A stretch of 64,000 nucleotides of DNA from Actinomycetota bacterium (GTDB taxonomy: Bacteria; Actinomycetota; Geothermincolia; Geothermincolales; RBG-13-55-18), in the NCBI GenBank assembly GCA_034188985.1, contig JAXHVT010000023.1:62005-126004 (forward strand), given 5' to 3'. The position numbers and the translations under genes were made by a program. The notes below the pieces were generated by a model that did no database searches, was not told the DNA's origin, and saw nothing but the letters and a program-made list of their open reading frames with translations. This document shows positions 9,703 through 59,801 of the stretch, in pieces; the stretch's first letter is position 1, and each line of letters begins with the position of its first letter.

Positions 9703-11906
9703 TCGCCCTCAAGGCCCTGGCCCTGGCGGCGTTCGTATTCGTCCCGGGGTGGTTGGCCGCGTCCCTTCTCGACGGCACCTGGGGTTGGCTGGATAACCGG
9801 GACAGGCTGTTTCTGGCTTTATGCCTGGGGGCCGGCGTGGTTTCCGCGGCGGCCCTGGCCCTCTCCCTGGCCTCCACCTACAGCCTGCCCAGGTTGCTTC
9901 TCCTGGTGGGTTTCGCCAGCGCCCTGCTGGTTATCGCTGCAGGGAAAAAGATATCCTGGATTAGGCGGGTACGGCCCGGTGACGTCCTCCTCGTCATCCT
10001 ATTCGTCATCGTAGGCCTTATCCTCTTCTCCCCACCCGGCCGCACCGTCTTCGGCTGGTCGGACGTGGGCATCTACCCTAATATATCCGCCAACGTGGTG
10101 CGGGAGGGGGGAGAAGTCATGGAGGCGACGACGGTGAGGGAGGTGTCACCCGAGCACCGCGAGCTTTTGTACATGCGGAACGACAACCCCGACGTTTCCT
10201 ACGAAGCCTACGAGAACAAAGCCTTTTTTATAACGGATTACGACAGTGGAAGGGTTATTCCCCAGTTCTACTTCCTCTGGCCGGCGTTTATGGCCGTCTT
10301 CGCCTCTTTCCTGGGATTGGAGGCGCAATTCTGGGCCGTAACGGCGATGGGGATCCTGGCCCTGATGGGGATCTATCTCCTGGCCCACAGGTTTCTGGGC
10401 TGGAGGTGGGGGTTGGCCGTCACCGTGCTGGGTGCGTTGTCGCCCCTGATGATCTATTTCACCCGCTATGCGTCGACGGAGATGATGAACATGGCCTTCT
10501 TCATCCCCGGGGCCTTTTGCCTGGTGGGGTACCTGCGGGCTGAGGGCGAGGGCATGAGGAGAACGGGTATGCGGCTGACAGTGGCCGCGTCCTTCTTTTT
10601 CACGCTGTGTTTTCTGTGCCGCATCGACTTCCTGCTCGTGCTCATCCCCATAGGCTTGAGCTATCTGGGAAGGCGGGTTTATAACGGCCTGTCAAGGGTC
10701 GACTGGTGGTTCCTGGGCCTGACCCTGGCCGGCGCGGTGCTCGCCGTCCTGGTGGGGGTGGTATATTCCGCGCCGTACTTCTATTCCATACTGGGCTCAT
10801 TTGCTAGTTTCCGGGATTTCATTTTCAATCCCTTCGCCCTGGCCTTCCTGGTGATAGCAATCGTCTTCATATTCGCACCTGGATTGAGGGGGGCGGCGAG
10901 GCGGCTGGCTGCCGCCCGCGGTCTTCTGCTGGCCGTTTTCTGGCTGGCGCTTGCAGGCGGCTTTATATTTCTATATTTCGTGCGGCCGTCCGGCGGGGAC
11001 CCGGTCATCGAGTACGGCATAATCAATCCCATCCAGGGCTCGTCCTACGTAAGCCAGACCATGGTGAGGTGGGGATGGTATTTCTCCTTCGTGGGCACCC
11101 TGGCCATATTCGCCGGCTACGGTCTGTGGTTTACACGGCGCAGGAGATTCGACCATATCACTGTGGGTATGATAGGGTTCGTTTTCACGCTGGTATACAG
11201 CTGGAGTATGCGCTGCACCCCCATGCATATTCTCACCATGCGACGCCTGGTTCCGGTTGTTCTGCCCATGGCGGTGATCATGATCGCCTATGCCCTGAAA
11301 AGCCTGGTGGAGGGTGCGAGCCGTGTCTCGAGGCGCGGATCGTGGGGGACGTGGACCGCCAGGCTGGCCGCCGCGGCCGTGCTGTTCTATCTCGTATGCT
11401 ACCTGGCGAATGCCTCCATACCCATAATGGGCCTGGAGGAGGGAGGCAACCAGTTGGAGCTTTGCGGGGAGATAGCGCGGGAGGCCGGGGAGGATGCCGT
11501 CGTGCTCATGGATTTCAACCTGGGCGATCTGTTCGGCCCACCGCTGCGCTGTTTCTACGGCGTGGAGAACGGGTGGATAATGGACAACGGGGATATGGAC
11601 ACGGAGGATTTCCGGGGACTGCTCGGCGACCTGGGATTCCCGAACAGGAAGGTGTGCATACTGTGGCGCCCCGGGTTGTCGGGAGAGCACGTGCCCCTTC
11701 CCGATAGCCTGGGCTACGATCTCGAGGGCGAATATGTTTCTAGGGAGGAGATGCTGGAGAAGAGCTTCGAGCACCGGCCGGACCGGAGGGAATACGAGCA
11801 AGAGGAGATATGGCTGCTGCGGTTGAAAGAGGAATACGGGGAGGGTGACGTGCCCAGCGGCGGCCTGGAGGCGCGCGGCCGGAATCTCGAGAATGCCCGC
11901 AGCTGA
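9699..11906 (+). CDS. Large polytopic membrane protein (~735 aa, >=12 TM), GT-C-like candidate glycosyltransferase/polymerase
   Basis: TTG start with a GGGAGGG SD, overlapping the upstream stop (TTGA). There are many hydrophobic helices, plus a large loop after TM3-4 and a C-terminal soluble domain. No confident family assignment. Confidence 0.55.
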   Translation: MIALKALALAAFVFVPGWLAASLLDGTWGWLDNRDRLFLALCLGAGVVSAAALALSLASTYSLPRLLLLVGFASALLVIAAGKKISWIRRVRPGDVLLVILFVIVGLILFSPPGRTVFGWSDVGIYPNISANVVREGGEVMEATTVREVSPEHRELLYMRNDNPDVSYEAYENKAFFITDYDSGRVIPQFYFLWPAFMAVFASFLGLEAQFWAVTAMGILALMGIYLLAHRFLGWRWGLAVTVLGALSPLMIYFTRYASTEMMNMAFFIPGAFCLVGYLRAEGEGMRRTGMRLTVAASFFFTLCFLCRIDFLLVLIPIGLSYLGRRVYNGLSRVDWWFLGLTLAGAVLAVLVGVVYSAPYFYSILGSFASFRDFIFNPFALAFLVIAIVFIFAPGLRGAARRLAAARGLLLAVFWLALAGGFIFLYFVRPSGGDPVIEYGIINPIQGSSYVSQTMVRWGWYFSFVGTLAIFAGYGLWFTRRRRFDHITVGMIGFVFTLVYSWSMRCTPMHILTMRRLVPVVLPMAVIMIAYALKSLVEGASRVSRRGSWGTWTARLAAAAVLFYLVCYLANASIPIMGLEEGGNQLELCGEIAREAGEDAVVLMDFNLGDLFGPPLRCFYGVENGWIMDNGDMDTEDFRGLLGDLGFPNRKVCILWRPGLSGEHVPLPDSLGYDLEGEYVSREEMLEKSFEHRPDRREYEQEEIWLLRLKEEYGEGDVPSGGLEARGRNLENARS

Positions 11907-13457: not shown

Positions 13458-14948
13458 ATGGTGATGTCCGGTTATCCCAGGTGGCGAAGGGCCAGGTTTG
13501 CCGTCACCATGCTGATCACCCTGGCGGTGATCGTTTTATTCCTGGTATTGATCTTCAAGAACGTGGCCCCCTTTGGGGCGTCGGTCGAATACCATATCGA
13601 TCTGGAAACGGGCGTCGGCGACAAAGCCTTGCCGTCTCCCCTGGAGCCATCGGCCGCCTTGGGGGTGGATGAAAACGGGGTAGCCTACCAGGTACCCCAG
13701 AGCATGATGACGAGCGATTTGTTGACCTTCGAACTCGAGATCCCCTACGAGAATTTCGATACCGCCGAGCTGACTATCAGGTACCAGGGTGATCCCGAGG
13801 AGTTCCTGTTCGGCCTCAGGGGGGATAAGGAGAGCGAGTATCGGTATAAGCCCATACACAACAGGTCCTTGAACGAGTTGGACTGGTTCAATACGGAGGA
13901 TGCCGGTATCACCCTGTGGGAGAGGCAGGAGGATTACGCGAGCGTCGAGGAGTTCATAAGCGATCCCCTGGTGACCTCGAGCGAAGACGGACAGGAGGCT
14001 GGTCGCGCTCTCGTAGCCAGCTATTACTACGAGGTCGAACAGCCTTACCCGGAGATCGACGCTTCCGGAATCGACAGCGGCACGCGGGTCGGATCGTTAC
14101 TGAGGGGATTGCATGTTTTCTACACCGTAGTGGGCGTGGAACCACTCAGCTTCTCCTTCGACAAGAGGGAGCTGAACTGGAAAGAGGGCCCGGATCCCCT
14201 GGGTGTATTCGTTTATTCCGGCTCGGAGCTGATATGGTCCACGAGTATACCCGATGACGGGGATGAATTCGAGAGCGGCGTCATATCGCCCGCCGTGGAG
14301 TTCGACCTCACTCTTCCGGACCTGCCGGAGGGAGTATACAGGATCGAGCTGTTCTGCGACACCGATGTGATAATCGAGAACTTGAGAGCCACTCAAGGAT
14401 ACCTGAGCTTCGTGGACAAGATATTCGTGGCCGATCACGAACTCTACGAAATCGCCCCGAGCAGGCCGCAGACTGTATTCACCAACGCCGAGGCACTGTA
14501 TGTATGGACCTGGCACCCCGAGGCCTATCAGACCATAGGCGTGGACGGGGAAGAGGAGATAGTGATGGAAGAGGCGGGAATCAAGACATTCGCCTTATTG
14601 CCATATGGTGTCAAGGAATTGCGGATGGAGATGGGCGATCTGTCTTTTCTCTCTAAGGAAAGCAGCTTCGCCTTTTCCAGGGCATCGTTTTTCGATCCCT
14701 ATCCCGTGAAGGTAAAGGAATACAGCAGGGAGATCCTATATTCCGATATCGAGTACGTGATCGCGGACTACACTGTCCCGGACGAAGAGGGGGAGTGGCT
14801 GACCAGAAAGTTGACCTTCGATCTGGAGGATATGGAGATCGAGGACAATAAACTCAGATGCACGCTATGGGCACCGAACCTGGCGGTTCTTGATGGAGAG
14901 ATCGTGCTCGGTTCCCTCGATATAAAGCTGCAAAAGGATGGATCGTGA
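13458..14948 (+). CDS. Membrane-anchored acidic extracytoplasmic protein, unknown function
   Basis: 496 aa. A single N-terminal TM (FAVTMLITLAVIVLFLVLIF) is followed by a ~460-aa Asp/Glu-rich domain without recognisable motifs. Good SD (AAGAGGA). Confidence 0.5.
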   Translation: MVMSGYPRWRRARFAVTMLITLAVIVLFLVLIFKNVAPFGASVEYHIDLETGVGDKALPSPLEPSAALGVDENGVAYQVPQSMMTSDLLTFELEIPYENFDTAELTIRYQGDPEEFLFGLRGDKESEYRYKPIHNRSLNELDWFNTEDAGITLWERQEDYASVEEFISDPLVTSSEDGQEAGRALVASYYYEVEQPYPEIDASGIDSGTRVGSLLRGLHVFYTVVGVEPLSFSFDKRELNWKEGPDPLGVFVYSGSELIWSTSIPDDGDEFESGVISPAVEFDLTLPDLPEGVYRIELFCDTDVIIENLRATQGYLSFVDKIFVADHELYEIAPSRPQTVFTNAEALYVWTWHPEAYQTIGVDGEEEIVMEEAGIKTFALLPYGVKELRMEMGDLSFLSKESSFAFSRASFFDPYPVKVKEYSREILYSDIEYVIADYTVPDEEGEWLTRKLTFDLEDMEIEDNKLRCTLWAPNLAVLDGEIVLGSLDIKLQKDGS

Positions 14949-16859: not shown

Positions 16860-18350
16860 ATGGATGCGGTTGAAGGGCTGAGACCCGAGGAAAAACCCGG
16901 ATTACCACCCTTATTGAGGCGGATTCCCGCTGATACATGTATATATGTCGTCCTGGTTCTCGTCCTGGTAGCATTCTCGGTATTCGTCCTCATCGAGGTA
17001 TACAGCGTGGACGGCCTTTTCTCATACGACCCTTACTATCACATGCACCTGTCCGAGTTGATGGAACGGGAAGGGGATCTGGTAACCGAGATCCAGTTCT
17101 ACGAAACCGAAGAGGCTCCTCAATACGTGAGCAGCATGAGATCGCTCACGGCTCTGATACACGAATATACCGGCATTTCGTATTTAAATATCTATAAGGG
17201 GTTCGGTCTTTTCTGTAGGATTTTCACCGCGCTGGCCCTGTTCATCACCGCCGCTTATTTCCTGCGAAGCAAGAAATACGCCCTGATCGCGGTGATCCTC
17301 TTTCTGTCGTCGCCGTACATCATTTACAGGAGCTTCATCACCTTCCCTGAGAACCTGGTTATGCCCTTCCATATCCTCATCTTCTATTCCCTGATAAAGA
17401 GCCTGAGGGAGAAAAAGGCGGACCATATTCTGCCCGTATTGATCGCCGCTTCTCTTTACATCCATTACAGGTCGATTATCGTGCCGGCGGTTCTGGTACT
17501 GGTATTTCTGCTCTTCTGGAGGAGGATAAGATACACCGTCGGTCTGCTGGCGAGCATGGCGATTCTCGCCGCCCCCATACTGGTAAGCGCGGTGGAGCAA
17601 TACGTGGCATATCTGCAGGTGAACGTAGGACCCAGCGCGGCCTGGAAACCTTATACAGTGGCCGATCCCAGCTATACCGTCCCCACGCTCAGTGGTTATC
17701 AATCTCAACTCGGAGCCCTTCTATTGCTCTTCTCCCTGCTGGGCATCCCCTTTCTCATACGCAAGATCAACGCCCAGAAATTCCTGCTGCTGGTATGGCT
17801 GGTATTCACTTTCGCGCTTACCAGGGGAAAGGCGATCGGCCTGTATGTACCCCCGGACAGGATGCTGGCGTATCTCTGCATGCCGGCCGCGCTGACGGCC
17901 GCGGTATTCTTCAAGGAGATAGTCGGACTTGAGGTTCTCACCTCGCGGGCCAGATACGTATTCGTGGCGGCGGTAACGGTGGTCCTGATCTTCTTCTTAT
18001 TCGTAAACCTGCCCTCCGTACACGGCTGGGTCGGCGTGGGAGCGGACGAGCTGAACACGTCCGAATGGCTCAACGACAACGTGTCGCAGGACGCGGTGAT
18101 TCTGCCCTTCGACCTGGACCTTATAACCATCGGTCTCGAGAGCTATAAGAACGTGGACGGCTTGAGCTATGGCGATTGGACGGAGATCTTCAGCCATCCG
18201 CTGGGCGTGAAGGACAGACTGAGGCAGTTGTATCCCGACAAGCGGATATATATCGTGACCGGAAACAAGGTTTTCTCGCTACATGACGCGGAGATCGTCT
18301 TCAGCGAGGGCGATATGAGAGTCTATACTTACTGGGATGAAGGAACATGA
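16860..18350 (+). CDS. GT-C fold polytopic membrane protein with STT3/AglB-like first-loop motif (candidate polyprenol-linked glycan transferase)
   Basis: 496 aa. TM1 is followed by ...YSVDGLFSYDPYYHMHLSELMEREGD... (compare eukaryotic STT3 HEFDPYFNYR). About 11 TM follow, then a ~110-aa C-terminal soluble domain. No WWDYG motif. Confidence 0.55.
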   Translation: MDAVEGLRPEEKPGLPPLLRRIPADTCIYVVLVLVLVAFSVFVLIEVYSVDGLFSYDPYYHMHLSELMEREGDLVTEIQFYETEEAPQYVSSMRSLTALIHEYTGISYLNIYKGFGLFCRIFTALALFITAAYFLRSKKYALIAVILFLSSPYIIYRSFITFPENLVMPFHILIFYSLIKSLREKKADHILPVLIAASLYIHYRSIIVPAVLVLVFLLFWRRIRYTVGLLASMAILAAPILVSAVEQYVAYLQVNVGPSAAWKPYTVADPSYTVPTLSGYQSQLGALLLLFSLLGIPFLIRKINAQKFLLLVWLVFTFALTRGKAIGLYVPPDRMLAYLCMPAALTAAVFFKEIVGLEVLTSRARYVFVAAVTVVLIFFLFVNLPSVHGWVGVGADELNTSEWLNDNVSQDAVILPFDLDLITIGLESYKNVDGLSYGDWTEIFSHPLGVKDRLRQLYPDKRIYIVTGNKVFSLHDAEIVFSEGDMRVYTYWDEGT

Positions 18351-24150: not shown

Positions 24151-24363
24151 CCCCGTCCCGTACGGCCCGGCGCGGTTTAATAAGCCGGGTAAGCCGCTCG
24201 CTTACGATTGATTCTATATGGAGCATATGCGAACTGGACTCTGTTCCTTTACCGCCGAGCACTCCGCAGATGTGACGGGCCAGGGATTGTTCCTCGAGGT
24301 CAGGCGCCATACTTCGATGACGGCGGGACCGGATCGGCCCCCGTGATGTCCCCCCGTAGATAC

Positions 24364-26988
24364 CTACTCGCTGGGAGTGTATATCTGTTCGTCCTCGCTC
24401 CAGGCCTCGTACCAGCCGGAGTCGTAGCCCTCGCGGTAGCCGTCGATGTAGCCGAAGATGTATTCCTCGTTGGGGCCTACGGCGTCGAAGGGTTCCGAGT
24501 AATAGGGCGTCCCTGCGTAGTAGTCGCTGTACCCCATGCTATGTCCCTCCGCGAACCCCGTGTTGTAGCCGTAGTCGTAATCGGTCATGGTCCAGCCGTC
24601 GTCCTGCGGCACGGGGGCCGGCTCGGGCTGTGGTGCCGGGGCCTCCGGCTGGGGCTTCGCCGGCTGCGGTTCCGGCTCGGGCTGTGGCTCCTCCCCAGTC
24701 TCTTCCTCCTCCCCGTCCGGCTCCTCCCAGGCTACGGCCATCGTCTCCGGATTGACGGCCGTAATCCCCTCGCCGTCGGTCTTGAGCAGCCAGGCGTCTC
24801 TCATGCCGCTGCCGAAGGATACGGTATAGCCGGCCAGGATATAACCGCCATCCGGTGTCTGCCGCAGGGAATTGAAGCCGTCCTCGTAATCCCCCCCATA
24901 AACCTCGCTCCACATGTACTCACCGTCGCCGTCGGTTTTCACCAGCCAGCCGTCGCCGCCCTCGCCGTAGGAATCGCTCTGGCCGGCGAGAGCGTATCCA
25001 CCATCCGACGTCTGCACTACGCTTTTCGCGCTGTCGCTTTCCGGCCCGCCGTAATTACGGCTCCACAACTCGTTGCCGTCGTCGTCGGTCTTGACTATCC
25101 AGGCATCCCTGCCTTCCCCCATGGAGTCGGTATAACCCGCCAGGATATAGCCGCCGTCGGAGGTCTGTTGAAGCGAGCTGGCCAGATCCGATTTAGTGCC
25201 ACCGTAGGTATGGCTCCAGAGCTGGGTTCCCTCGGAGTCGGTTTTCACCAGCCAGGCGTCCCTCATATCACTGTCGGAGGATTGGGTATAGCCCGCCATG
25301 GCGTAACCTCCGTCGGAGGTCTGAACGGCGGTGGAGAAACGGTCGGTATTCTCCCCGCCGTAGTCCTGCCTCCAGAGCTCCTCGCCGTCCACGTCGGTCT
25401 TTATCAGGAAGCCGTCCCCGGCCTTGTCGGAGGACTCGGTATAGCCCGCCAGGATATAGCCGCCGCCGGAGGTCTGTTGGACCGAATTGGAGAGATAGGC
25501 CACCTCGCCACCGTAGGTCCGATCCCAGAATTGGGATCCCCGGGAATCGACCTTGATCATCCTGGCGTCGTTCTCCCCGCCCGAGGAGGGCGGCGTGAAG
25601 ACAGCGACGGCATACCCGCCGTCGGAGGTCTGCTGGACGGAGGTGGCGGCGTCGTCTTTCTCCCCGCCACAGGCGCTGTCCCATACCAGGTTGCCCTGCG
25701 CGTCCGTCTTGACCACCAGGGCATCGCTTTTGCCGGAGTCGGAGGAGAGCGCTTTACCGCCCAGTATGTATCCGCCGTCCGCTGTTTCCCCCACCGACAT
25801 GAAGGCATCGTCCAGCTTCCCGCCGAAGACCTTCTGGAAAGTGATCGTGGCCCCTCCGTCTCCCTTGAACGCGAAAACCAGGCCGATCGCCGCTCCGCCG
25901 GCGATCAACAGGGAGAGGACCACGACGAGCCACAGCTTGCCGCGTTTCCTGGCGGGTTTCTCCAGCCCCGGGATACCGGGGGCCGTCATCTCACCGGCGG
26001 CGGCGGCCGATACGGCCTGGTCGGGGGGCAGTCCGGGAGCCGCCGGTGCGGCCGTTATCGCCGTCGTTTCCACGCCGACTTGCGGCAGTGGAGCCTGCGT
26101 CTTGATGGTAGGCGGGGAAGGGGGCGGTACCACGACCGTGGGAGGAGAAACGGCCGCCGCGGTCTCCGGGGAGGCCTTTATTTTCTCGAGGTCCTCTTTC
26201 ATCTCCCGGATATCCTGGTAGCGGTCCTCCTTCTTCTTGGCAAGGGTCCTGTCGACGACCGCCTGCAGGTGGGAGGGCAGGGAGGAATCGTGATCGCTTA
26301 AGGGCCGCGGTTGGTCGTGGACTACCTTATACATGGCCGAGGGGAGGCTGTCGGACAGAAAGGGATTGACGCCGGTGAGCATCTCGTAAAGGAGCGCGCC
26401 GGTGGAGAAGATGTCGGTGCGCCAGTCGGTCTTCTCGCCCCGTACTTGCTCGGGGCTCATGTAACCCGGGCTGCCCATAACCGTGCCAACCCTGGTCATG
26501 GTGGAGGAGCTCATGATGCGGGCGATGCCGAAGTCGGTTATCTTGGCCCGCCCGTCGAAGAGAAGGAAGATGTTGTCCGGCTTGACGTCACGGTGGGCTA
26601 TGTCGTGGTCGTGGGCATAGGCCAGGGCATCGCATATCTGGCAGGCGATGTCCATGGCGCGCTCGGGCTCCATGGCGCCTTCCTGCAGGGCCTTGTGGAG
26701 GGTGATGCCCTCCAGGAACTCCATGACGATGAAAGGGGTGCCGTCTGCCTTCTCCACCCCGTACACAGTAACGATATTGGGGTGGGAAAGTCCGCCCGCC
26801 GCCTGGGCCTCGCGCGTGAAGCGCTCGAAGGCATCCTCTATCTCCTCCGGGCTGAGGCCGTCGGGAAGGACGAGTTCCTTCACGGCCACGTTGCGTTTGA
26901 TGACCTCGTCGTAGGAGAGATAAACACGGCCCATAGCGCCGCGCCCTATCTCCCTGAGCACGCTGTAGTTGCCGATATTCTCGCGCAT
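24364..26988 (-). CDS. Ser/Thr protein kinase with TM helix and 7-repeat beta-propeller-like extracellular domain
   Basis: Hanks kinase motifs (VAVKEL, HRDVKPDNIF, DFGIA, SPGYMSPE). It has a Pro-rich linker, one TM (LWLVVVLSLLIAGGAAIGLVFAF), and seven ~48-aa repeats (..QTSDGGYILAGYT...DAWLVKTD..G..LW..TYGG). The tail is acidic Pro-rich, then Tyr/Gly-rich. Confidence 0.8.
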   Translation of the reverse strand: MRENIGNYSVLREIGRGAMGRVYLSYDEVIKRNVAVKELVLPDGLSPEEIEDAFERFTREAQAAGGLSHPNIVTVYGVEKADGTPFIVMEFLEGITLHKALQEGAMEPERAMDIACQICDALAYAHDHDIAHRDVKPDNIFLLFDGRAKITDFGIARIMSSSTMTRVGTVMGSPGYMSPEQVRGEKTDWRTDIFSTGALLYEMLTGVNPFLSDSLPSAMYKVVHDQPRPLSDHDSSLPSHLQAVVDRTLAKKKEDRYQDIREMKEDLEKIKASPETAAAVSPPTVVVPPPSPPTIKTQAPLPQVGVETTAITAAPAAPGLPPDQAVSAAAAGEMTAPGIPGLEKPARKRGKLWLVVVLSLLIAGGAAIGLVFAFKGDGGATITFQKVFGGKLDDAFMSVGETADGGYILGGKALSSDSGKSDALVVKTDAQGNLVWDSACGGEKDDAATSVQQTSDGGYAVAVFTPPSSGGENDARMIKVDSRGSQFWDRTYGGEVAYLSNSVQQTSGGGYILAGYTESSDKAGDGFLIKTDVDGEELWRQDYGGENTDRFSTAVQTSDGGYAMAGYTQSSDSDMRDAWLVKTDSEGTQLWSHTYGGTKSDLASSLQQTSDGGYILAGYTDSMGEGRDAWIVKTDDDGNELWSRNYGGPESDSAKSVVQTSDGGYALAGQSDSYGEGGDGWLVKTDGDGEYMWSEVYGGDYEDGFNSLRQTPDGGYILAGYTVSFGSGMRDAWLLKTDGEGITAVNPETMAVAWEEPDGEEEETGEEPQPEPEPQPAKPQPEAPAPQPEPAPVPQDDGWTMTDYDYGYNTGFAEGHSMGYSDYYAGTPYYSEPFDAVGPNEEYIFGYIDGYREGYDSGWYEAWSEDEQIYTPSE
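24756..25851. repeat. Intragenic tandem repeat (~144-nt units x7) encoding the kinase ectodomain blades
   Basis: Periodic protein repeat seen directly. It also creates the long spurious antisense ORF 24208-26301. Confidence 0.6.
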
Positions 26989-27149
26989 ATCTCACCCCGT
27001 CGCTCCATACTCCCCGTTTATCGACGTTTGTCGATTATGATATCACGAGGGGGACCTTAAGGTCGTAGGCGGGGGTTTCTTGAGATAGTCGGGCCGTGGA
27101 ATTATACTTCTAGGGATATGGACGAGAGGGATAAACCAAGGAGTGTGAT

Positions 27150-28406
27150 ATGGATTACGATGTGAGATACCTGGGTAAGGCCGATGAGGGAAGGCTAAGG
27201 ACAGAGTGGGCGGAACGGGACATGCCCGTAATGCGCATGATAAAGGAGCGCTTCGAGCGAGAGAAGCCCCTGGAGGGCGTGAAGGTGGGAGCGTGCCTTC
27301 ACGTCACCACGGAGACCGCCAACCTGGCCATAACCCTGAAGGCGGGAGGGGCCCAGGTGGCCCTTTGCGCTTCGAACCCGCTTTCCACCCAGGACGACGT
27401 GGCGGCCTCGCTGGTCAAGCACAGTGAGATACCGGTTTTTGCCATCAAGGGGGAGGATAACGATACCTACTACGAGCATATAAACGCCGTTCTGGACAGC
27501 TCGCCCCAGATGACCCTGGACGACGGCGCGGACCTCATATCCACCCTGCACGCGGACAGAGAGGATCAGGCCCGGCAGGTGTGGGCAGGGGCGGAGGAGA
27601 CCACCACCGGCGTCATCCGCTTGAGGAGCATGGCTGAAAAGGGGGTGCTTCTCTACCCGGTTATCGCGGTGAATAACGCCATGACCAAGCATCTCTTTGA
27701 CAACCGCTTCGGCACCGGGCAGTCCACCCTGGATGGCATAATGCGCGCCACCAACGTCCTGTTCGCGGGAAGGCGGGTGGTGGTATGCGGTTACGGAATG
27801 TGCGGCAGGGGGGTGGCGTCCCGGGTGCGCGGGCTGGGGGCCAACGTCACAGTGGTGGAGGCCGAGCCGCTGAAGGCGCTGGAGGCCGTCATGGAGGGCT
27901 TCGATGTCTGCGGAGGCCTGGCCGCGGCGGAGAAGGGAGATATCTTTATAACCGTGACCGGGGATATCCACGTCCTGAGGCGTGAGCATTTCGAGAGGAT
28001 GAAGGACGGGGCCATAATGTCGAACTCCGGCCATTTCAACGTGGAGATAGATATCCCGGTCCTGGAGGAGATGGCCAAATCCAAACGCAGGGTGAGGGAG
28101 AACGTCGAGGAATTCGTCATGCCCGACGGCAGAAAGCTCTACCTGCTGGCCGAGGGAAGGCTGGTCAACCTGGCATCCGCTGAAGGCCATCCCGCCTCGG
28201 TTATGGACATGAGCTTCGCCAACCAGGCCCTTTGCGTGGAGTACGTCAAGGATCAGCACAAGTCGCTCGACCGGGTTGTATACGACGTGCCCGAGAAGGT
28301 GGACTCGGAGATAGCGCGCCTGAAACTGGAGAGCATGGGCATAGAGATAGACGATCTCACCGAGGAGCAGGACGAATACCTGCACTCCTGGGAGATGGGT
28401 ACCTAG
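27150..28406 (+). CDS. ahcY: Adenosylhomocysteinase
   Basis: The 418-aa protein matches SAH hydrolase throughout, including the NAD-binding segment GYGMCGRGVASRVRGLGANVTVVE and the downstream HFNVEID motif. Confidence 0.9.
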   Translation: MDYDVRYLGKADEGRLRTEWAERDMPVMRMIKERFEREKPLEGVKVGACLHVTTETANLAITLKAGGAQVALCASNPLSTQDDVAASLVKHSEIPVFAIKGEDNDTYYEHINAVLDSSPQMTLDDGADLISTLHADREDQARQVWAGAEETTTGVIRLRSMAEKGVLLYPVIAVNNAMTKHLFDNRFGTGQSTLDGIMRATNVLFAGRRVVVCGYGMCGRGVASRVRGLGANVTVVEAEPLKALEAVMEGFDVCGGLAAAEKGDIFITVTGDIHVLRREHFERMKDGAIMSNSGHFNVEIDIPVLEEMAKSKRRVRENVEEFVMPDGRKLYLLAEGRLVNLASAEGHPASVMDMSFANQALCVEYVKDQHKSLDRVVYDVPEKVDSEIARLKLESMGIEIDDLTEEQDEYLHSWEMGT

Positions 28407-28528
28407 CTGCCGGAAACGGCCCGGGAGCGTAATCGTAGGGGCTCAACACCGTTGAGCCCGCAAGCAGCGAGGCCGGACAGTGGCTGGCGTCCATAAAGGC
28501 GCCGTTAGAGGAGTGACATCATAATCCC

Positions 28529-29557
28529 ATGAGCGGTTTCAAGGCTGTGGATTGGAAGGACGGGAAGATGGTTCTTCTCGACCAGACGGCGTTGCCCTCG
28601 CGAGAGGAGTACCTGAGCCTTGATGACTGGAGGGACGTGGCGGAGGCCATTCGAACCATGCGGGTACGAGGTGCCCCGGCCATCGGTATAGCCGCGGCAT
28701 ATGGGGTGGCGCTGGCGGCCCGTTCTTCTGGTAACCCCGATGAGGAAGTGCTCCGCGCCTGCGAGGGGCTGTCGGGTACCAGGCCCACGGCCGTCAATCT
28801 CTTCTGGGCCCTGGAGCGTATGAGGCGAGCGGCGGTGATGGCGAAAGGACGGGAGATGGGAGAGGTCCTGCTGGCCGAGGCGAGGGCTATCGCCGAGGAG
28901 CAGGATGAAGCCGACCGTGCCATCGGAGAACTGGGCGCGGAGCTGCTGTCCCCGAGGTGCCGGATTCTGACCCACTGCAACGCGGGAGGTCTGGCCACCC
29001 ATTCCCTTGGCACCGCGCTGGGGGTGATAAAGACCGCGCATCGTGCCGGCAAGGAGATATTCGTGTGGGTGGACGAGACCAGGCCGCTTCTGCAGGGAGC
29101 ACGCCTCACCGCCTGGGAGCTGCGGCGGGAAGAAATCGAGATGGCGGTTATCTGCGACAACATGGCCGGCCATATCATGTCAAGGGGAGAGGTGGACGCG
29201 GTGGTGGTGGGGGCCGACCGTATAGCCGCCAACGGGGACACCGCCAACAAGATAGGTACGTACACCCTGGCCGTTCTGGCCGAACGGCACCGCATACCAT
29301 TCTACGTCGCCGCCCCCTCCTCAACCCTGGACTCGGAGCTCGGGCAAGGTTCCGATATACCCATAGAGGAACGGGATCCCGGAGAGGTCACCGAAGTCGG
29401 GGGGCTCGCGGTTACGCCGCAGGGAACCCGGGCTCGTAATTTCGCCTTCGACGTTACGCCCTCTGGGCTGATTTCGGCTATTATTACCGAGGAAGGAGTC
29501 GCACGCCAGCCTTTCCGGGAGGCACTGAGGCGGTTCGTGAAGAAAGGCAGACGATGA
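28529..29557 (+). CDS. mtnA: Methylthioribose-1-phosphate isomerase (eIF-2B alpha/beta/delta family)
   Basis: VRGAPAIGIAAAYG...THCNAGGLAT...GADRIAANGDTANKIGTY is the MtnA signature. Confidence 0.85.
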   Translation: MSGFKAVDWKDGKMVLLDQTALPSREEYLSLDDWRDVAEAIRTMRVRGAPAIGIAAAYGVALAARSSGNPDEEVLRACEGLSGTRPTAVNLFWALERMRRAAVMAKGREMGEVLLAEARAIAEEQDEADRAIGELGAELLSPRCRILTHCNAGGLATHSLGTALGVIKTAHRAGKEIFVWVDETRPLLQGARLTAWELRREEIEMAVICDNMAGHIMSRGEVDAVVVGADRIAANGDTANKIGTYTLAVLAERHRIPFYVAAPSSTLDSELGQGSDIPIEERDPGEVTEVGGLAVTPQGTRARNFAFDVTPSGLISAIITEEGVARQPFREALRRFVKKGRR

Positions 29558-30711
29558 AGGCGATGATATTGGCGGCGGGTCTGGGAACGCGGCTGCGCCC
29601 CCTGACGGTGGAGATATCCAAGCCCATGGTGCCCATCGTGAACCGCCCGGTGATGGAGCATATAGTGGAACTGCTGTACCGGCACGGCTTCCGGGACATA
29701 TACGTCAACCTTCACTGGCACCCGGACGTGATTACCAGCCATTTCGGCGATGGAGCGAAATGGGGGGTCTCTCTCTCCTACTCCTACGAGGAGAAACTTC
29801 TGGGCACGGCGGGAGGGGTGAAGAAACTGGAAGGCGAGCTGGGCGACGGGACCTTCCTGGTCATAAGCGGCGATGCCCTGACCGACCTGGACCTGACCGC
29901 GCTGGTCGATTTCCACCGCGGGCACGGCGCGATCGCGACCCTGGTTACAACCCCTGTGAGCGACCCCTCCAAATACGGAGTGGTGATTACCGACGAGGAG
30001 GGTCGTATCACCGGTTTCCAGGAGAAGCCCAAGCGAGAGGAGGCCAGGAGCTACGTGGCCAACAGCGGCATATACGTATTCGAGCCCGGGGTGCTAGAGA
30101 TGATGCCGGAGGGTTCCTTCTACGATTTCGGCTCGCAGCTCTTCCCGCGCTTCCTGGAAGAAGGGCTGGATTTCTATGGCTACATACACTTGGATTACTG
30201 GAACGACGTGGGTAGCCTGGAGGAATACAAGGCGGGCAATTTCGATGCCCTGAATGGTAAGGTGGATATCAAGATACCCGGCGTACGCATCGGCGAGGAT
30301 GTGTGGATCGGAGACGAGACGGTGATAGAGGAAGATGTAGTCATGATGGGGCCCATCTGCGTCGGTTCCAACTGCCAAGTCAAGCGAGGGGCCAGACTTT
30401 TCGGCCCCCTGGTGGTGGGGGACAAGACGGTTATCGACCAGGGCGCCATCCTTTATCGCGGCATCAAGTGGGGCGACAGCTATATCGGTAAGGACGCTCA
30501 TCTCATGGACAGTATCGTGGGGCTCAAGACGGAGATAGGGGAGGGTGCGGCCGTGCTCTCCGATACGGTGGTGGGACACCGCAGTATCATCGGTGACGGC
30601 AGTATCATCCATCCCAGCGTTAGCATCATGCCCGGCTCCGTTATCGAGAAAGACCTCCACTTCAAGGGGGAGGAAGACCGAAAAGACGGGGGCAAAGACC
30701 CCGAGCGATAA
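29554..30711 (+). CDS. NDP-sugar pyrophosphorylase (mannose-1-phosphate guanylyltransferase-like) with LbH domain
   Basis: MKAMILAAGLGTRLRPLT...SKPMVPI... Second manC-like paralog. ATGA overlap with the mtnA stop. Confidence 0.75.
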   Translation: MKAMILAAGLGTRLRPLTVEISKPMVPIVNRPVMEHIVELLYRHGFRDIYVNLHWHPDVITSHFGDGAKWGVSLSYSYEEKLLGTAGGVKKLEGELGDGTFLVISGDALTDLDLTALVDFHRGHGAIATLVTTPVSDPSKYGVVITDEEGRITGFQEKPKREEARSYVANSGIYVFEPGVLEMMPEGSFYDFGSQLFPRFLEEGLDFYGYIHLDYWNDVGSLEEYKAGNFDALNGKVDIKIPGVRIGEDVWIGDETVIEEDVVMMGPICVGSNCQVKRGARLFGPLVVGDKTVIDQGAILYRGIKWGDSYIGKDAHLMDSIVGLKTEIGEGAAVLSDTVVGHRSIIGDGSIIHPSVSIMPGSVIEKDLHFKGEEDRKDGGKDPER

Positions 30712-30974: not shown

Positions 30975-31003
30975 TTGACTTTAATAGTTAACTATTATAT
31001 GTT
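30975..31003 (+). promoter_or_regulatory. Sigma70-like promoter TTGACT-15/16nt-TATATG with 10-bp palindrome TAGTTAACTA in the spacer
   Basis: AT-rich island in otherwise GC-rich DNA, immediately upstream of comF. The perfect palindrome at 30985-30994 is a candidate operator. Confidence 0.4.
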
Positions 31004-31028
31004 ATAGAACATGATTAACTATGGCAAT

Positions 31029-31733
31029 ATGGCGGAACTGTTCTTCCCCACGCGCTGCGCCGGCTGCGGAAGGTATTCCGGCAGGCCGCTTTGCCTGGAG
31101 TGCACCGCCTCGCTTCCCCTGATAAGAGGCCCGGTATGCAGCCTCTGCGGCAAGCCCACGCTCTATGACGTGGAGGACTGCCTCGAATGCCGGGGCAGGA
31201 TAAGATACCTGGATGCGACCGTGGCCCTGGCCGTCTACGAAGAGCCCTTGAGGTCGATGATCCACAAGTTGAAATATCGCAATGGGTGGAGGCTGGCGAT
31301 GCCCCTCGGGGCCATGGCCGCCGTGCGGCTGGCTCCAATGCTCGGCGGGGACGAGCCTGTCGTTACCTACGTGCCCATGTACCGCCGTAATCGCAAGGCA
31401 CGCGGCTACGATCATGCGGAGGAGCTGGCCCGAGGCGTGGCAAGGGCTCTAGGCTTGAAGGTTGAAACGCTCCTGGGCAGGACGCGCCCCTGCAAAGCCC
31501 AGAGCGGTCTGACCCATGAAGACAGGAGAGTGAACGTACTGGGGGCCTTCCAGGAGCGAGCCACGGCGGCACATGTGAGGGAGGCCGTGCTGGTGGACGA
31601 CGTACTGACCACCGGTTATACACTGCGCGAGTGCGCTGGTGCGTTGAAGAAAGCGGGAGTGGAAAGGGTGATCGCCTGCGTTCTGGCCAGGGATCTGCTG
31701 GGCGAACCCACCCGCCGTCATGGTACGGGATAA
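31029..31733 (+). CDS. comF: ComF-family phosphoribosyltransferase (competence protein ComFC-like)
   Basis: N-terminal Cys-rich zinc-finger-like CAGCG...CLEC...CSLCG, then a PRTase fold (VLVDDVLTTGYTL). Confidence 0.7.
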   Translation: MAELFFPTRCAGCGRYSGRPLCLECTASLPLIRGPVCSLCGKPTLYDVEDCLECRGRIRYLDATVALAVYEEPLRSMIHKLKYRNGWRLAMPLGAMAAVRLAPMLGGDEPVVTYVPMYRRNRKARGYDHAEELARGVARALGLKVETLLGRTRPCKAQSGLTHEDRRVNVLGAFQERATAAHVREAVLVDDVLTTGYTLRECAGALKKAGVERVIACVLARDLLGEPTRRHGTG

Positions 31734-31814
31734 ATTGCAGCGCCTTTTTTTCGCGTAAATAGAACCCCCCGGGATGACGATAAAAATCATAGAGCCTAAG
31801 GAGGCAAGTGAGGC

Positions 31815-32069
31815 ATGCGAATATCGGACAGAGAGATAGAGAACTCGCTGCGGTTTTTATCCCAGGAGCCCTTCGCATCGGGCGGAAAGCCGCACATTGC
31901 GCAGGATATAGAGCAGATGGTGCTGGGGCAGCTGAGGGAGATGCCGGATGTCCGGATGGACAGGGTGCTATCACTACGCACCGCCATCCAGGAGAAACGC
32001 TATTCGGTGTCCAGCGAGGACGTGGCCAAGAAGATACTTGGCCGCTGCGTTGCCGATCATATCCGTTGA
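31815..32069 (+). CDS. flgM: FlgM-family anti-sigma-28 factor (orphan)
   Basis: 84 aa. C-terminus RVLSLRTAIQEKRYSVSSEDVAKKIL resembles the FlgM sigma-28-binding helix. Strong SD (AAGGAGG). No flagellar genes in the window. Confidence 0.45.
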   Translation: MRISDREIENSLRFLSQEPFASGGKPHIAQDIEQMVLGQLREMPDVRMDRVLSLRTAIQEKRYSVSSEDVAKKILGRCVADHIR

Positions 32070-32138
32070 CGTGCAAGAGATGGTGCTCAGAAGAAAGGCG
32101 GCCCCTGCGGGGGCCGCCTTTGATATCGGTAGGGTCCG

Positions 32139-33330
32139 TAGCTGAATGGCCTCGATAAGGTTGGCTCCCTCCTGTACGCCGCCGCACAGGGTAGCCATAT
32201 CGTACCTGGCGCCTTTCTCCTTGAGGATGCGGGCCAGGGAGCAGGTGAGCATGGGCCCGGAACAGGCCAGGGGGTGGCCTATGGCGATAGTGCCCCCTTG
32301 ACGTTGACCTTCTCCGGGCCCAGTCCCAGCTCCCTGATGCCGTACAGGGTGATCACGGCGAAGGTCTCGTTTATCTCTCAGTACTCGATATCGCCAATAT
32401 CCATCGCAGCTTTCTACAGAGTCATCCTGGAGGCGGGGAACGGACCCACGCCCATTAAACCGGGATCGACGCCCGTCCATTCCATGGATACGACCCTCGC
32501 CAGGGGCTTGAGTCCCAGTGAATCGGCCTTGTTCTCGTTCATAAGGAGCACCGCGGTGGCCCCGGCGTTCAGGGATGAGGAGTTTCCGGCCGTTATCTGA
32601 CCATCGGGCTTGAAGGCCGGCTTGAGCTCGGCCAGCTTCTCCATGGTGGTGCTGGCGCGCATGGAGAGATCGGTGTCGAAGCGCTGCACGCTTCCGTCCT
32701 CCTGCTCCACCTCGACTGGAAGGATCTCGCCCGCGAAATAGCCCTCCTTTACCGCCCTTGCGGCTCTCTGGTGGCTGAACAGGGACCACTCGTCCATCTC
32801 CTCCCTGGTGATGCCAGACTGGCCATGGAGCTTCTCGGCGGTCAGCCCCATGCTCATAGCGGTCTGGAAATCGAGCTGCTTCAGGCTCTCGTCCTGGAAG
32901 AACCTGGGGTTTATAGCCATGAGGTCGGTGCTCCCCGGCGGATCCAGGGGAACGTGAGTCATGTGCTCCATGCCGCAGACCAGAACTAGGTCGGAACAAC
33001 CGAGAATTTTATCCATGGAACCCTGGTGGAGGGCGGACACCCCGGAGATACATACCCGGTCCATTCCCTGTGCCGGGGTGGTCACGGGCAGGCCGGCCAG
33101 GAAGGCAATGGTTCGACCGCCCATGAGGTAGTACGCATCTGCAGGGCGCAGCCCACCAGGAGGTCGTCGATATCCTCCGGGTTCACCTGGTTGCGGGACA
33201 GTATCTCCTTCACCAACAGAGACAGCGCATCGTCCATCCTCAACTTGTTGAAGGCGTCTCTCTCCGGTTGACGGGACCTGGATCTGGAGTAGGGGGCTCT
33301 GAGCATGTCCACGATAACCGCTTCGGTCAT
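32139..33330 (-). pseudogene. Acetyl-CoA acetyltransferase (thiolase) pseudogene with multiple lesions
   Basis: Thiolase homology is spread over three frames: N-terminus 33330-33130, middle 33124-32417, C-terminal fragments 32376-32139 (contains GHPLACSG). There is a frameshift near 33125-33135. In-frame TAG at 32414-32416 (GPFPASRMTL*KA). In-frame TGA at 32378-32380 (DIEY*EINETF). A frameshift sits in the C5 run at 32294-32298 (KGG/TIAIGHP). The native stop after ...IEAIQL is absent. Confidence 0.6.
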
Positions 33331-34219
33331 CTTTTCCTACTTTGGTTACGTTTCCCAGAATATATTAATCGTAGGTTAATACTATTGTGGTTCCGTATGT
33401 CTTAACGGAACTTAGGCCCGGGCATAGCATATATAGATGCCGTAATGGCTCTCGCGCGACCCAAGGCCCGCTTATGAGCCGAGAGGTTCCGGGATCCGAG
33501 ACCTTGCGGCTCTCCTTGAACGGTTGGGCTTGCCACCTGGGACCCGTTCGGATCATTCCAGCCTTATCCTGGGCATGAAGAGGGAGAGGGCGAAGGCCAG
33601 ACCAGCCACCACCACCGCCGTAAACACATGTGGCTTCAACAGGGTCGGTGCCGGCCCTTCAGACTCGGGCCGAAGAGACTTATAATAATGGTGGAAGGTT
33701 TCGGCCCGGGTCTGTGGTTGAAAGTCGATGCTAGCCGCAGGCGAAACGACCCACGTAAGCCAACTTTTTGTTGGTGAGCATGGTGCGGCTTAGGGGTAAG
33801 ACCTGCCCGGCTCAGATCCGGAGAAGCGCAATAGTGGCGGGCATTCCGGTAACCCTTGAAGGGCGGATTCCCGCTGCGAGCCGCTCAGCAGGCGAGTGTG
33901 GGGTCAAAGACCAGGTCAGCCGGGTTCGAAACCTTTTAATAAAAACGATGCTCCCCGCGGTTATACGCGGAGGCCTGGTGGGGGCCCCGCCGGAAGGGAA
34001 ACGACGGACGGGGACCCTGCGATGAGACGGCGTATCGAAAAGCGAGTGGGATTCGAGGGATTGTGTGGAGGCCCGGAAACGCGGGGTTCATATGGTGGTG
34101 GACTTTCTTGGCACAGGAATAAACCTGTGGTAGGCTTATGCGAGTCAAAAACGAGATAAACCGGGGCAGCCCCGGGTATTCGATGAGCTTATATAGCTTA
34201 TTTATAGGGATCGAGGTCG

Positions 34220-34254
34220 GCCCATACCGCACCTTGTAAGGGTATGGGCTTTTG
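34220..34254 (+). terminator. Intrinsic-terminator-like hairpin (9-bp stem GCCCATACC/GGTATGGGC, 12-nt loop) followed by TTTT
   Basis: Seen directly. It lies 26 nt upstream of the hpf start, at the end of a 0.9-kb ORF-free region. Confidence 0.4.
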
Positions 34255-34279
34255 CACGGAAGAGAAGGGAGCAAAGGTT

Positions 34280-34834
34280 ATGCAGATCATCGTGAAAGGC
34301 AAGCACCTTGAGATGACGGATGCCCTGCGGAGCTATGCGGAGGAAAAGGTGGGCAAGGTAGAGAAGTACTTCGACCGCATACTCAAGACGGAGATCGAGA
34401 TGAGTGTGGAGCGTAACCCCAAGATCTCGGATAACCAGGTAGTGGAGGTTACCATCTTTACCTCCGGACCGGTAATCAGGGCAAAGGAAAGCGCTTCGGA
34501 TATGTACCAGGCTATAGACCTGGTCACCAGCAAGTTGGAGCGCCAGGCCAGGAAGGCGAAGAAGAAGATGATAGACAGGTCTCATCATGCTAAGAATCCC
34601 TTCAAGGAGCCATCATCCCTGCACCTGGAGGAGGAGGAGGAGGAAGAGGAAGAAGCCTTGATCGTAAAGACCAAGAGCTTCCCGCTCAAGCCCATGATAC
34701 CCGAGGAAGCCTGCCTGCAGATGGACCTGGTGGGACACGATTTCTTCGTCTTTATAAATGCCGATACGGAGGAGACTAACGTGGTTTATAGAAGAAAAGA
34801 TGGGAACTACGGCTTGATAGAGCCAGGAGGTTGA
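34280..34834 (+). CDS. hpf: Ribosome hibernation promoting factor (long HPF)
   Basis: MQIIVKGKHLEMTDALRSYAEEKVGKVEKYFDRI... is the RaiA/HPF N-domain. C-terminal extension carries a poly-Glu linker. Confidence 0.85.
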   Translation: MQIIVKGKHLEMTDALRSYAEEKVGKVEKYFDRILKTEIEMSVERNPKISDNQVVEVTIFTSGPVIRAKESASDMYQAIDLVTSKLERQARKAKKKMIDRSHHAKNPFKEPSSLHLEEEEEEEEEALIVKTKSFPLKPMIPEEACLQMDLVGHDFFVFINADTEETNVVYRRKDGNYGLIEPGG

Positions 34835-59780: not shown

Positions 59781-59801
59781 GGGGTGATATAATCTTGGCG
59801 T

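What the first reader, a model, noticed from the sequence alone, without database searches (positions are those of the whole stretch)
24364..26988. Ser/Thr kinase with a seven-blade repeat ectodomain and Tyr/Gly-rich acidic tail, convergent with the glycan island
The extracellular part has seven ~48-aa repeats (QTSDGGYILAGYT...DAWLVKTD.DGN.LWS.TYGG), predicted to form a 7-bladed beta-propeller. This is not the PASTA domain usual for bacterial cell-wall-sensing kinases. The C-terminus is EPQPEPEPQP... followed by DYDYGYNTGF...YYAGTPYY.... A propeller ectodomain next to a glycan-assembly locus could sense carbohydrate or cell-envelope ligands. The repeat also produces a 697-aa spurious antisense ORF.
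Basis: partly seen in the sequence, partly recalled or inferred. Interest (0 to 1): 0.55.

Follow-up and report, generated by a model that had tools for sequence, protein, structure and literature searches.

The report
Receptor kinase with seven-bladed propeller sensor
This gene encodes a membrane-spanning bacterial Ser/Thr kinase whose usual PASTA cell-wall sensor is replaced by a seven-bladed beta-propeller plus a conserved Tyr/Gly-rich tail: a rare domain combination, but a variation on a known type of receptor kinase.

Summary
ORF 24364-26988 (-) encodes an 874-aa protein, listed in NCBI only as "protein kinase" from an Actinomycetota MAG.

Its parts are:
- A complete Hanks-type kinase domain with all catalytic motifs. 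The closest solved relative is M. tuberculosis PknB.
- An Ala/Pro-rich linker and one TM helix.
- Seven repeats of 51-52 aa (not ~48).
- A Pro/Glu spacer.
- A conserved 78-aa Tyr/Gly/acidic tail.

AlphaFold models the repeats as a 28-strand, seven-bladed propeller (pLDDT 92, pTM 0.90). Its best solved match is the propeller domain of CylK (TM 0.82; profile E 1e-34). The repeats belong to a very large family of secreted proteins, distantly related to DUF5122, SBBP and delta-60 repeats.

The kinase-propeller fusion is rare. I found one other example, a 51%-identical metagenomic ortholog with the same neighbours on both sides.

In a kinase-domain tree the two proteins nest among PASTA kinases, which suggests ectodomain replacement.

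The glycan-sensing idea is untested. The gene is a separate, convergent transcription unit, and the shared synteny covers both flanks.

The antisense ORF is a codon-bias shadow.

Verdict: a new variant of a known kind (compare PknD's NHL propeller), of modest interest.

The parts
24364..26988 (-). Complete CDS, 874 aa plus stop: receptor-type Hanks Ser/Thr kinase (NCBI MDY6794633.1, 'protein kinase')
26215..26967 (-). Cytoplasmic kinase domain (aa 8-258) with G-loop, Lys37, HRD Asp134, DFG Asp152, SPE, and a Thr-rich activation loop (SSSTMTRVGT)
   Evidence: Pfam Pkinase E 3e-51; motifs; closest solved structure is M. tuberculosis PknB, E 3e-57
25936..26163 (-). Ala/Pro/Thr-rich juxtamembrane linker (aa 276-351), poorly conserved in the ortholog
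   Evidence: composition; alignment
25867..25935 (-). Single transmembrane helix (aa ~352-374). The basic cluster KPARKRGK on its N-terminal side implies N-in/C-out topology
   Evidence: hydropathy scan; the topology is inferred from the positive-inside rule
24754..25866 (-). Extracytoplasmic seven-bladed beta-propeller (aa 375-745): seven 51-52-aa repeats. The N-terminal strand ITFQK is probably what closes blade 7 (inference)
   Evidence: AF2 pLDDT 92.3, pTM 0.90, 28 strands; Foldseek best hit CylK 7ROO/7RON, TMq 0.82, E 3e-24; profile vs PDB CylK E 8.5e-35; repeat alignment
24601..24753 (-). Pro/Glu/Gln-rich acidic spacer (aa 746-796), variable in length between the two orthologs
24367..24600 (-). 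Conserved C-terminal Tyr/Gly/acidic module (aa 797-874) with two G-[aromatic]-x-x tetrad runs (GYNTGFAEGHSMGY and GYIDGYREGYDSGWYEAW)
   Evidence: 68% identity to the ortholog tail, higher than the 49% of the propeller; G-x3-G excess 6/20000 shuffles and G-aromatic excess 3/20000; faint FliH and Yae1_N motif hits
24208..26301 (+). 697-aa antisense shadow ORF (not a gene)
   Evidence: GC1 0.79 / GC3 0.62 mirrors the sense-frame GC3 of 0.82
26989..27149 (.). Divergent intergenic region shared with the AdoHcyase gene, presumed to hold the kinase promoter
   Evidence: gene map; one promoter-like site was found, but on the + strand

Best explanation
The gene encodes a single-pass receptor Ser/Thr kinase. 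The catalytically competent PknB-type kinase domain sits in the cytoplasm. After a flexible linker and one TM helix, the extracytoplasmic part is a rigid seven-bladed beta-propeller, homologous to the CylK C-terminal propeller and to a very large family of secreted and surface proteins. A Pro/Glu spacer and a conserved Tyr/Gly-rich tail follow.

Most likely mechanism (inferred by analogy with PknB and PknD): the propeller binds an extracellular ligand or envelope partner. Binding or clustering brings two receptors together, the kinase domains autophosphorylate their activation-loop threonines, and cytoplasmic substrates are then phosphorylated. The tail, with its two GxxxG/aromatic helix-like motifs, probably provides self-association or attachment at the far end of the ectodomain.

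In evolutionary terms it looks like a PknB-like PASTA kinase whose ectodomain was replaced.

Shown here: the architecture, intact catalytic motifs, the propeller fold and its homology, the rarity of the fusion, and conservation of the tail.

Inferred: the topology, the sensing and dimerisation mechanism, Ca2+ binding, and the role of the tail. The ligand is unknown.
For: - Kinase domain and motifs. The closest solved structures are PknB, Stk1 and StkP.
- TM helix with a basic cluster on the kinase side.
- High-confidence propeller model. It is structurally closest to CylK, with sequence homology at E 1e-17 for the single sequence and 8.5e-35 for the profile.
- More than 8000 secreted homologs carry T9SS, PKD, dockerin or PGF-CTERM modules, which fits an extracellular binding domain.
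- An independent full-length ortholog, P0122, has the same architecture. This rules out a chimeric assembly.
- The two propeller kinases are sisters nested among PASTA kinases at 60-63% identity.
- The tail is more conserved than the propeller, and its motif pattern is non-random.
- Propeller-bearing bacterial Ser/Thr kinases (NHL, WD40, PQQ) are documented (PMC1262709).
Against: - No ligand, substrate or phosphatase/FHA partner was identified, and none lies among the annotated ORFs of the window.
- The tail could not be modelled (pLDDT 42). It has no detectable homologs beyond P0122.
- Dimerisation-driven activation is by analogy only.
- The kinase tree is a neighbour-joining tree without support values.
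- The ranked list from the exhaustive search stops at ~445 bits, so fusions of kinases to more divergent propellers of this superfamily would not have been seen.
Confidence: 0.72

Rival explanations
1. Glycan-locus sensor. The propeller and/or aromatic tail binds the polysaccharide or glycolipid made by the adjacent 1-24 kb glycan-assembly locus, or its precursors. The kinase then feeds back on that pathway.
For: - The gene abuts a large glycan locus: GT2 x5, GT4 x3, GT87, UDP-GlcNAc 2-epimerase, two GDP-mannose-dehydratase-like enzymes and an NDP-sugar pyrophosphorylase.
- The same four sugar genes flank the ortholog.
- Tyr/Trp-rich sequences and propellers can bind sugars. Photorhabdus propeller lectins appear among the weaker fold hits.
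Against: - The gene is convergent with the locus and not co-transcribed with it.
- The opposite flank (AdoHcyase) is conserved as well, so the synteny is probably just shared ancestry between two related genomes.
- With only two genomes there is no comparative power.
- The lectin hits are generic propeller similarity (TM ~0.6, 14% identity).
- No carbohydrate-binding family is detected.
Confidence: 0.15
2. Localisation/anchor model. The ectodomain is not a ligand-gated sensor. It is a tether that positions a constitutively active kinase at a particular envelope site, with the Pro/Glu stalk spanning the wall and the aromatic tail sticking to a wall polymer or partner protein.
For: - The order is TM, propeller, extended Pro/Glu spacer, then a highly conserved terminal module.
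- The tail is the best-conserved extracellular part.
- From general knowledge, PASTA domains of PknB-type kinases also act in localisation.
Against: There is no homology of the tail to any known wall-binding module. The tail fold is unresolved.
Confidence: 0.2
3. The propeller is catalytic, a CylK/BrtB-like alkyl-halide-activating enzyme domain displayed on the cell surface.
For: CylK is by far the best solved structural and sequence match.
Against: - The CylK active site lies at the interface with an N-terminal Ca2+ beta-roll domain and needs Arg105 from that domain. The paper treats only proteins with both domains as family members (PMC8916777).
- Here the propeller starts directly after the TM helix, with no beta-roll.
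- No halogenase or resorcinol genes were found among the annotated neighbours.
Confidence: 0.02
4. Artefact: a chimeric assembly or mis-called ORF that joins a kinase gene to an unrelated secreted propeller gene.
For: The fusion is extremely rare, and free-standing propeller proteins of this family are abundant.
Against: - The identical protein occurs in an NCBI MAG contig of 130 kb and in an independent Logan assembly.
- A 51%-identical ortholog with the same full architecture and neighbours comes from a different metagenome.
- GC3 is uniformly high at 0.82 across the ORF.
Confidence: 0.01

Closest known systems
PknB / Stk1 / StkP PASTA-domain receptor Ser/Thr kinases
   Same: The kinase domain is most similar to these: PDB PknB E 3e-57 and NCBIfam PknB_PASTA_kin best hit over aa 7-395. 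Metagenomic PASTA kinases are 60-64% identical in the kinase domain and surround it in the tree. The layout is the same: kinase, linker, single TM helix, ectodomain.
   Different: It has no PASTA repeats, and its score of 326 is below the family cutoff of 450. The ectodomain is a 7-bladed propeller plus spacer and tail.
M. tuberculosis PknD (receptor Ser/Thr kinase with extracellular NHL beta-propeller)
   Same: The design logic is the same: cytoplasmic Hanks kinase, one TM helix, extracellular beta-propeller (PMC1262709). From my own knowledge, PknD is activated by dimerisation.
   Different: PknD's propeller has six NHL blades. Here there are seven blades of an unrelated repeat family, with no NHL Pfam hit and NHL structures ranking only as weak generic fold matches. 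PknD also lacks the Pro/Glu spacer and the GxxxG tail.
CylK / BrtB C-terminal seven-bladed propeller (PDB 7RON, 7ROO, 7FH6)
   Same: It is the best solved structural match (TMq 0.82, 24-25% identity, E 3e-24). The blade motif DAWLxKxDxxGNxxW is shared. CylK has a Ca2+ site at each blade junction (PMC8916777), so Ca2+ binding here is plausible.
   Different: CylK is a soluble two-domain enzyme whose active site needs the N-terminal beta-roll. That domain is absent here.
Free-standing secreted propeller proteins of the same repeat family (DUF5122 / delta-60 / SBBP-like)
   Same: They are 40-52% identical over the whole seven-blade unit. More than 8000 hits were returned and the best E-value is 2e-173. 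The consensus W..TYGG...D.A.SV.QTSDGGYI.AG.T.SFGAG..D.WLVKTD..GN is shared.
   Different: They are secreted or surface proteins of ~400-640 aa, or giant multi-propeller proteins, carrying T9SS, PKD, dockerin or PGF-CTERM modules. None of those listed carries a kinase.
GX3 (GxxxG-repeat) helical motifs of FliH and Yae1/Lto1
   Same: The tail has two runs of G-[Y/F/H/W]-x-x tetrads. NCBIfam FliH models and Pfam Yae1_N pick out exactly these runs.
   Different: The E-values of 0.03-0.08 are far below the family cutoffs, so this is motif resemblance and not homology. The location is extracellular, and the fold was not predicted with confidence.

Membership tests
Hanks-type (eukaryotic-like) Ser/Thr protein kinase, Pfam PF00069 | Pkinase profile match above the gathering score | tested here: met
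   174.7 bits against a cutoff of 31.7, aa 8-258
Hanks-type (eukaryotic-like) Ser/Thr protein kinase, Pfam PF00069 | Catalytic residues: Gly-loop, VAIK Lys, HRD Asp, DFG Asp, APE | tested here: met
   GRGAMG15, K37, HRDVKPDN132, DFG152, SPE178; all conserved in P0122
PknB/Stk1 PASTA kinase (NCBIfam NF033483) | Whole-protein score at or above the curated cutoff (450 bits) | tested here: not met
   326 bits, match limited to aa 7-395
PknB/Stk1 PASTA kinase (NCBIfam NF033483) | Extracellular PASTA repeats (PF03793) | tested here: not met
   No PASTA hit at E<=1 on the whole protein or E<=10 on the ectodomain
PknD-type receptor kinase | Extracellular six-bladed NHL-repeat propeller | tested here: not met
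   No NHL Pfam hit; the model has seven blades; NHL structures rank at 30 or lower with TM <0.5
PknD-type receptor kinase | Architecture: N-terminal kinase, single TM helix, C-terminal beta-propeller | tested here: met
CylK/BrtB alkylating enzymes | C-terminal seven-bladed propeller homologous to CylK | tested here: met
   Profile E 8.5e-35; Foldseek TMq 0.82
CylK/BrtB alkylating enzymes | N-terminal Ca2+-binding beta-roll domain carrying Arg105 (both domains required, PMC8916777) | tested here: not met
   The propeller begins ~8 residues after the TM helix, and the N-terminal part is a kinase
CylK/BrtB alkylating enzymes | Propeller catalytic residues Tyr473 and Asp440 | not tested
   The residue numbering of the deposited chains could not be mapped reliably from the HMMER alignment
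DUF5122 (PF17164) / SBBP (PF06739) / delta-60 (TIGR02608) propeller repeats | Repeat profile match above the curated threshold | tested here: not met
   No Pfam hit on the ectodomain at E<=10. delta_60_rpt scores 26 bits against a cutoff of 76.5, and Lepto_SBBP_lipo 46 bits against 400. Close homologs do pass DUF5122 (39-60 bits against 27), so the relationship is at superfamily level.
FliH / Yae1 GX3-motif proteins | Family profile match above threshold | tested here: not met
   FliH models E 0.026 and 0.07 (14 and 12.7 bits against cutoffs of 180-260); Yae1_N E 0.079
FliH / Yae1 GX3-motif proteins | Consecutive GxxxG tetrads | tested here: met
   Six G-x3-G pairs in 78 aa; 6 of 20000 shuffles reach this

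The most novel reading that the evidence does not exclude
This is a lineage-specific envelope sensor. A Ca2+-stabilised CylK-type propeller, together with a distal GxxxG/aromatic tail held on a Pro/Glu stalk, reads the state of the cell-wall glycopolymer made by the adjacent locus and controls its synthesis by phosphorylation. On this reading it is a functional replacement of PASTA-based peptidoglycan sensing by a new glycan-sensing module.
Probability: 0.1. Interest if true: 0.5.

Novelty: new variant of a known kind. Interest (0 to 1): 0.3.

Why it matters
Bacterial receptor Ser/Thr kinases are mostly understood through PASTA sensors (PknB) and one NHL propeller (PknD). This protein shows a PknB-clade kinase that has exchanged PASTA for a member of a very abundant but functionally uncharacterised family of secreted propellers. 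It would give that family its first link to a signalling output. It also offers a handle for finding a ligand: what the propeller binds should switch a kinase. The conserved GxxxG/aromatic tail is an undescribed extracellular module. The practical impact is limited, because the organism is an uncultured Actinomycetota MAG and only two examples are known.

Tried and rejected
1. Homolog search with the 81-aa tail returned nothing, not even the query's own database entry. This is a word-index limitation and is uninformative.
2. AF2 on the tail with a two-sequence alignment gave pLDDT 42 and no secondary structure. The GxxxG-helix idea is neither supported nor refuted.
3. A tail-motif scan of species-representative genomes found no relative. 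The same scan of JGI metagenomes found only the P0122 contig again.
4. The genome scan with the full-length alignment keyed on the generic EIGRGAMG motif. It returned only unrelated kinases at <=50% identity, and no locus matched beyond about residue 370. It therefore gave neither a refined taxon nor new orthologs.
5. High-scoring kinase hits that looked like possible fusions turned out to be tandem two- or four-kinase proteins without a propeller. These were P0128, P0129, P0131-P0134, P0137, P0294, P0326 and P0339.
6. I tested whether the closest PASTA kinase (P0135) or the paralog with another ectodomain (P0142) occupies the same genomic position. Neither does, so there is no positional evidence for a recent swap.
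7. The AFDB50 fold library was unavailable.
8. The terminator/promoter scan gave nothing convincing for the minus-strand gene.
9. The CylK-like enzyme reading was rejected because the N-terminal beta-roll domain is absent.
10. The idea that halophilic proteome-wide acidity explains the acidic ectodomain was rejected. Most window proteins have pI 5-6, and some 8-9, against ~4.1 for the propeller, spacer and tail.
Full report
**Observation.** The ORF at 24364..26988 on the minus strand is real and encodes 874 aa. It is identical to NCBI protein MDY6794633.1, annotated only as "protein kinase [Actinomycetota bacterium]", from a MAG contig of 130 kb. The same protein is also present in an independent Logan assembly. 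GC3 is 0.82, typical of coding sequence in this window. The 697-aa ORF on the opposite strand (24208..26301) has the mirror-image composition: GC1 0.79 and GC3 0.62. It is a shadow ORF caused by codon bias, not a gene and not specifically a product of the repeat.

**Anatomy.** Residues 8-258 match Pfam Pkinase at E 3e-51. Every catalytic motif is present: GRGAMG, Lys37, HRDVKPDN, DFG and SPE. The activation loop is Thr-rich, and all of this is conserved in the ortholog.

The closest solved kinase domains are M. tuberculosis PknB (E 3e-57), S. aureus Stk1/PknB and S. pneumoniae StkP. The best NCBIfam model is the PASTA kinase equivalog, but the score is 326 bits against a cutoff of 450 and the match covers only aa 7-395. 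No PASTA domain is present.

Going towards the C-terminus, the protein continues as follows:
- An Ala/Pro/Thr-rich linker (aa 276-351).
- One TM helix (aa ~352-374), preceded by KPARKRGK. By the positive-inside rule this places the C-terminal 500 residues outside the cell (the topology is inferred).
- Seven repeats of 51-52 aa, 37-62% identical to each other.
- A Pro/Glu spacer (aa 746-796).
- A 78-aa Tyr/Gly/Asp/Glu-rich tail.

**The ectodomain is a propeller.** I built an 87-sequence alignment (A1). With it, AlphaFold2 gives a model with mean pLDDT 92.3 and pTM 0.90. The model has 28 strands, which is seven four-stranded blades.

Foldseek against the PDB puts the C-terminal seven-bladed propeller of the Friedel-Crafts alkylating enzyme CylK first, at TM 0.82 normalised to the query, 24-25% identity and E 3e-24. 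The next hits are generic WD40, lectin and sialidase propellers, fifteen orders of magnitude weaker. Sequence alone also finds CylK, at E 1e-17 for the single sequence and 8.5e-35 for the family profile. The blade motif DAWLxKxDxxGNxxW is shared.

The CylK paper reports a Ca2+ site at each blade junction of that propeller (PMC8916777). The many invariant Asp residues in this family make Ca2+ binding plausible here, but I did not test it.

The same paper shows that CylK catalysis needs an N-terminal beta-roll domain and Arg105 from it. It treats only two-domain proteins as family members. That domain is absent here, so the relationship is at the domain level and an enzymatic role is unlikely.

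**Family of the repeat.** The ectodomain alone retrieves more than 8000 proteins (the candidate cap) at up to E 2e-173 and 40-52% identity. Most are ~400-640-aa secreted proteins carrying T9SS sorting, PKD or dockerin modules, with PGF-CTERM in a longer (944-aa) homolog, from diverse bacteria and archaea. The exhaustive representative search adds giant multi-propeller proteins.

Several close homologs pass Pfam DUF5122. The window protein itself gets no Pfam repeat hit. It gives only sub-threshold NCBIfam matches to delta-60 and to the Leptospira SBBP lipoprotein. The repeat therefore belongs to the DUF5122/SBBP/delta-60 superfamily but is poorly covered by the curated models.

**Rarity of the fusion.** Among the 240 proteins retrieved by the word-index searches and the 150 best representatives out of 1.84 billion, only the window protein and P0122 combine a kinase with this propeller. 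P0122 is 875 aa and comes from JGI metagenome 3300018080. Other high-scoring kinases were tandem multi-kinase proteins.

A fusion of a Hanks kinase to a propeller of this family at >=40% identity should score well above 600 bits and would have been listed. Fusions to more divergent propellers could have been missed, because the list ends at 445 bits. Scans with the tail motif found nothing else in species-representative genomes or in JGI metagenomes.

**Evolution.** P0122 is 68% identical in the kinase domain, 49% in the propeller and 48% over the spacer plus tail. Over the last 81 residues alone the identity is 68%. The Pro/Glu spacer differs in length and the juxtamembrane linker is barely conserved.

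Metagenomic PASTA kinases are 60-64% identical in the kinase domain. In a neighbour-joining tree the two propeller kinases are sisters nested within that PASTA clade (no support values). This points to replacement of the ectodomain in a PknB-like ancestor. The nearest PASTA kinase and another paralog are not at the same genomic position, so the window gene is a distinct paralog.

**The tail.** Residues 797-874 contain two runs of G-[Y/F/H/W]-x-x tetrads: GYNTGFAEGHSMGY and GYIDGYREGYDSGWYEAW. Both the G-x3-G excess and the G-aromatic excess are well beyond shuffles (6 and 3 of 20,000).

Pfam Yae1_N and two NCBIfam FliH models pick out exactly these runs, but only at E 0.03-0.08. This is motif resemblance to GX3 helical self-association motifs and not membership. 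AlphaFold could not fold the tail, and nothing solved resembles it.

Its high conservation, at the end of a variable stalk, argues that it is functional. I favour self-association or attachment to an envelope component, as an inference.

**Context.** Upstream of the kinase's 3' end, from about 1 to 24 kb, lies a genuine glycan-assembly locus. It has five GT2 genes, three GT4 genes, a GT87, a UDP-GlcNAc 2-epimerase, two GDP-mannose-dehydratase-like enzymes, an NDP-sugar pyrophosphorylase and several large unannotated ORFs.

The kinase is convergent with the last of these genes. It is divergent from AdoHcyase, an IF-2B/MtnA-like gene and a second nucleotidyltransferase. In the ortholog contig both flanks are the same. 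The conserved neighbourhood is therefore best read as shared ancestry of two related genomes, and with two genomes no association test is possible.

No FHA or PP2C partner and no second kinase or propeller is present among the annotated ORFs. The rest of the window is ordinary chromosome: SecA, RF2, FtsX, an S41 protease, tmRNA and tRNAs.

**Interpretation.** The best-supported reading is a receptor Ser/Thr kinase of the PknB clade with a non-PASTA sensor, a seven-bladed CylK-type propeller. In design it is analogous to PknD with its NHL propeller (PMC1262709). Ligand-induced or tail-assisted dimerisation leading to activation-loop autophosphorylation is the likely mechanism, by analogy only. 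Glycan or envelope sensing remains possible but has no specific support. A CylK-like enzymatic role and an assembly artefact are effectively excluded.

**Verdict.** This is a new variant of a known kind of system. It is rare and tidy, and it ties an abundant orphan propeller family to a signalling output, but it is not conceptually surprising. Interest 0.3.

Noticed in passing
window 33701-33928 (+) and 34244-34834 (+): A strong raiA RNA motif (Rfam RF03072, 169.9 bits) lies directly upstream of an HPF/YfiA ribosome-hibernation factor gene (TIGR00741, E 9e-29). This is the expected pairing for the motif.
   Followed up: partly
window 52027-52375 (-): A full-length tmRNA gene (RF00023, 169.9 bits).
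   Followed up: no
window 59493-63320: Five tRNA genes on both strands at 59493-59565, 59802-59876, 62843-62915, 62932-63004 and 63239-63320.
   Followed up: no
window 9588-11906, 13458-14948, 16860-18350 (+): Three large ORFs (772, 496 and 496 aa) inside the glycan locus have no Pfam or NCBIfam hit. The 13458-14948 product is very acidic (pI 4.2). They may be novel polymerase-, flippase- or surface-type components.
   Followed up: partly
window 5266-6147 (+): A 293-aa, very acidic (pI 4.3) protein has only a sub-threshold match to the SCO4651-family lipoprotein model (36.6 bits against a cutoff of 65).
   Followed up: partly
window 31002-32999 (-): Overlapping minus-strand ORFs here have unusually low GC3 (~0.5). 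One matches only the C-terminal ~50 residues of acetyl-CoA acetyltransferases. This may be a frameshifted thiolase gene or an assembly error.
   Followed up: partly
window 27150-30711 (+): Immediately divergent from the kinase are AdoHcyase, an IF-2B/MtnA-like gene and a second NDP-sugar-pyrophosphorylase-like gene (385 aa). The last is a paralog of the 370-aa one in the glycan locus. The pairing is conserved in the Logan contig.
   Followed up: no
P0128, P0129, P0131-P0134, P0137, P0294, P0326, P0339 (database proteins, not in the window): Proteins with two to four tandem Hanks kinase domains in one polypeptide turned up repeatedly among the kinase homologs.
   Followed up: partly
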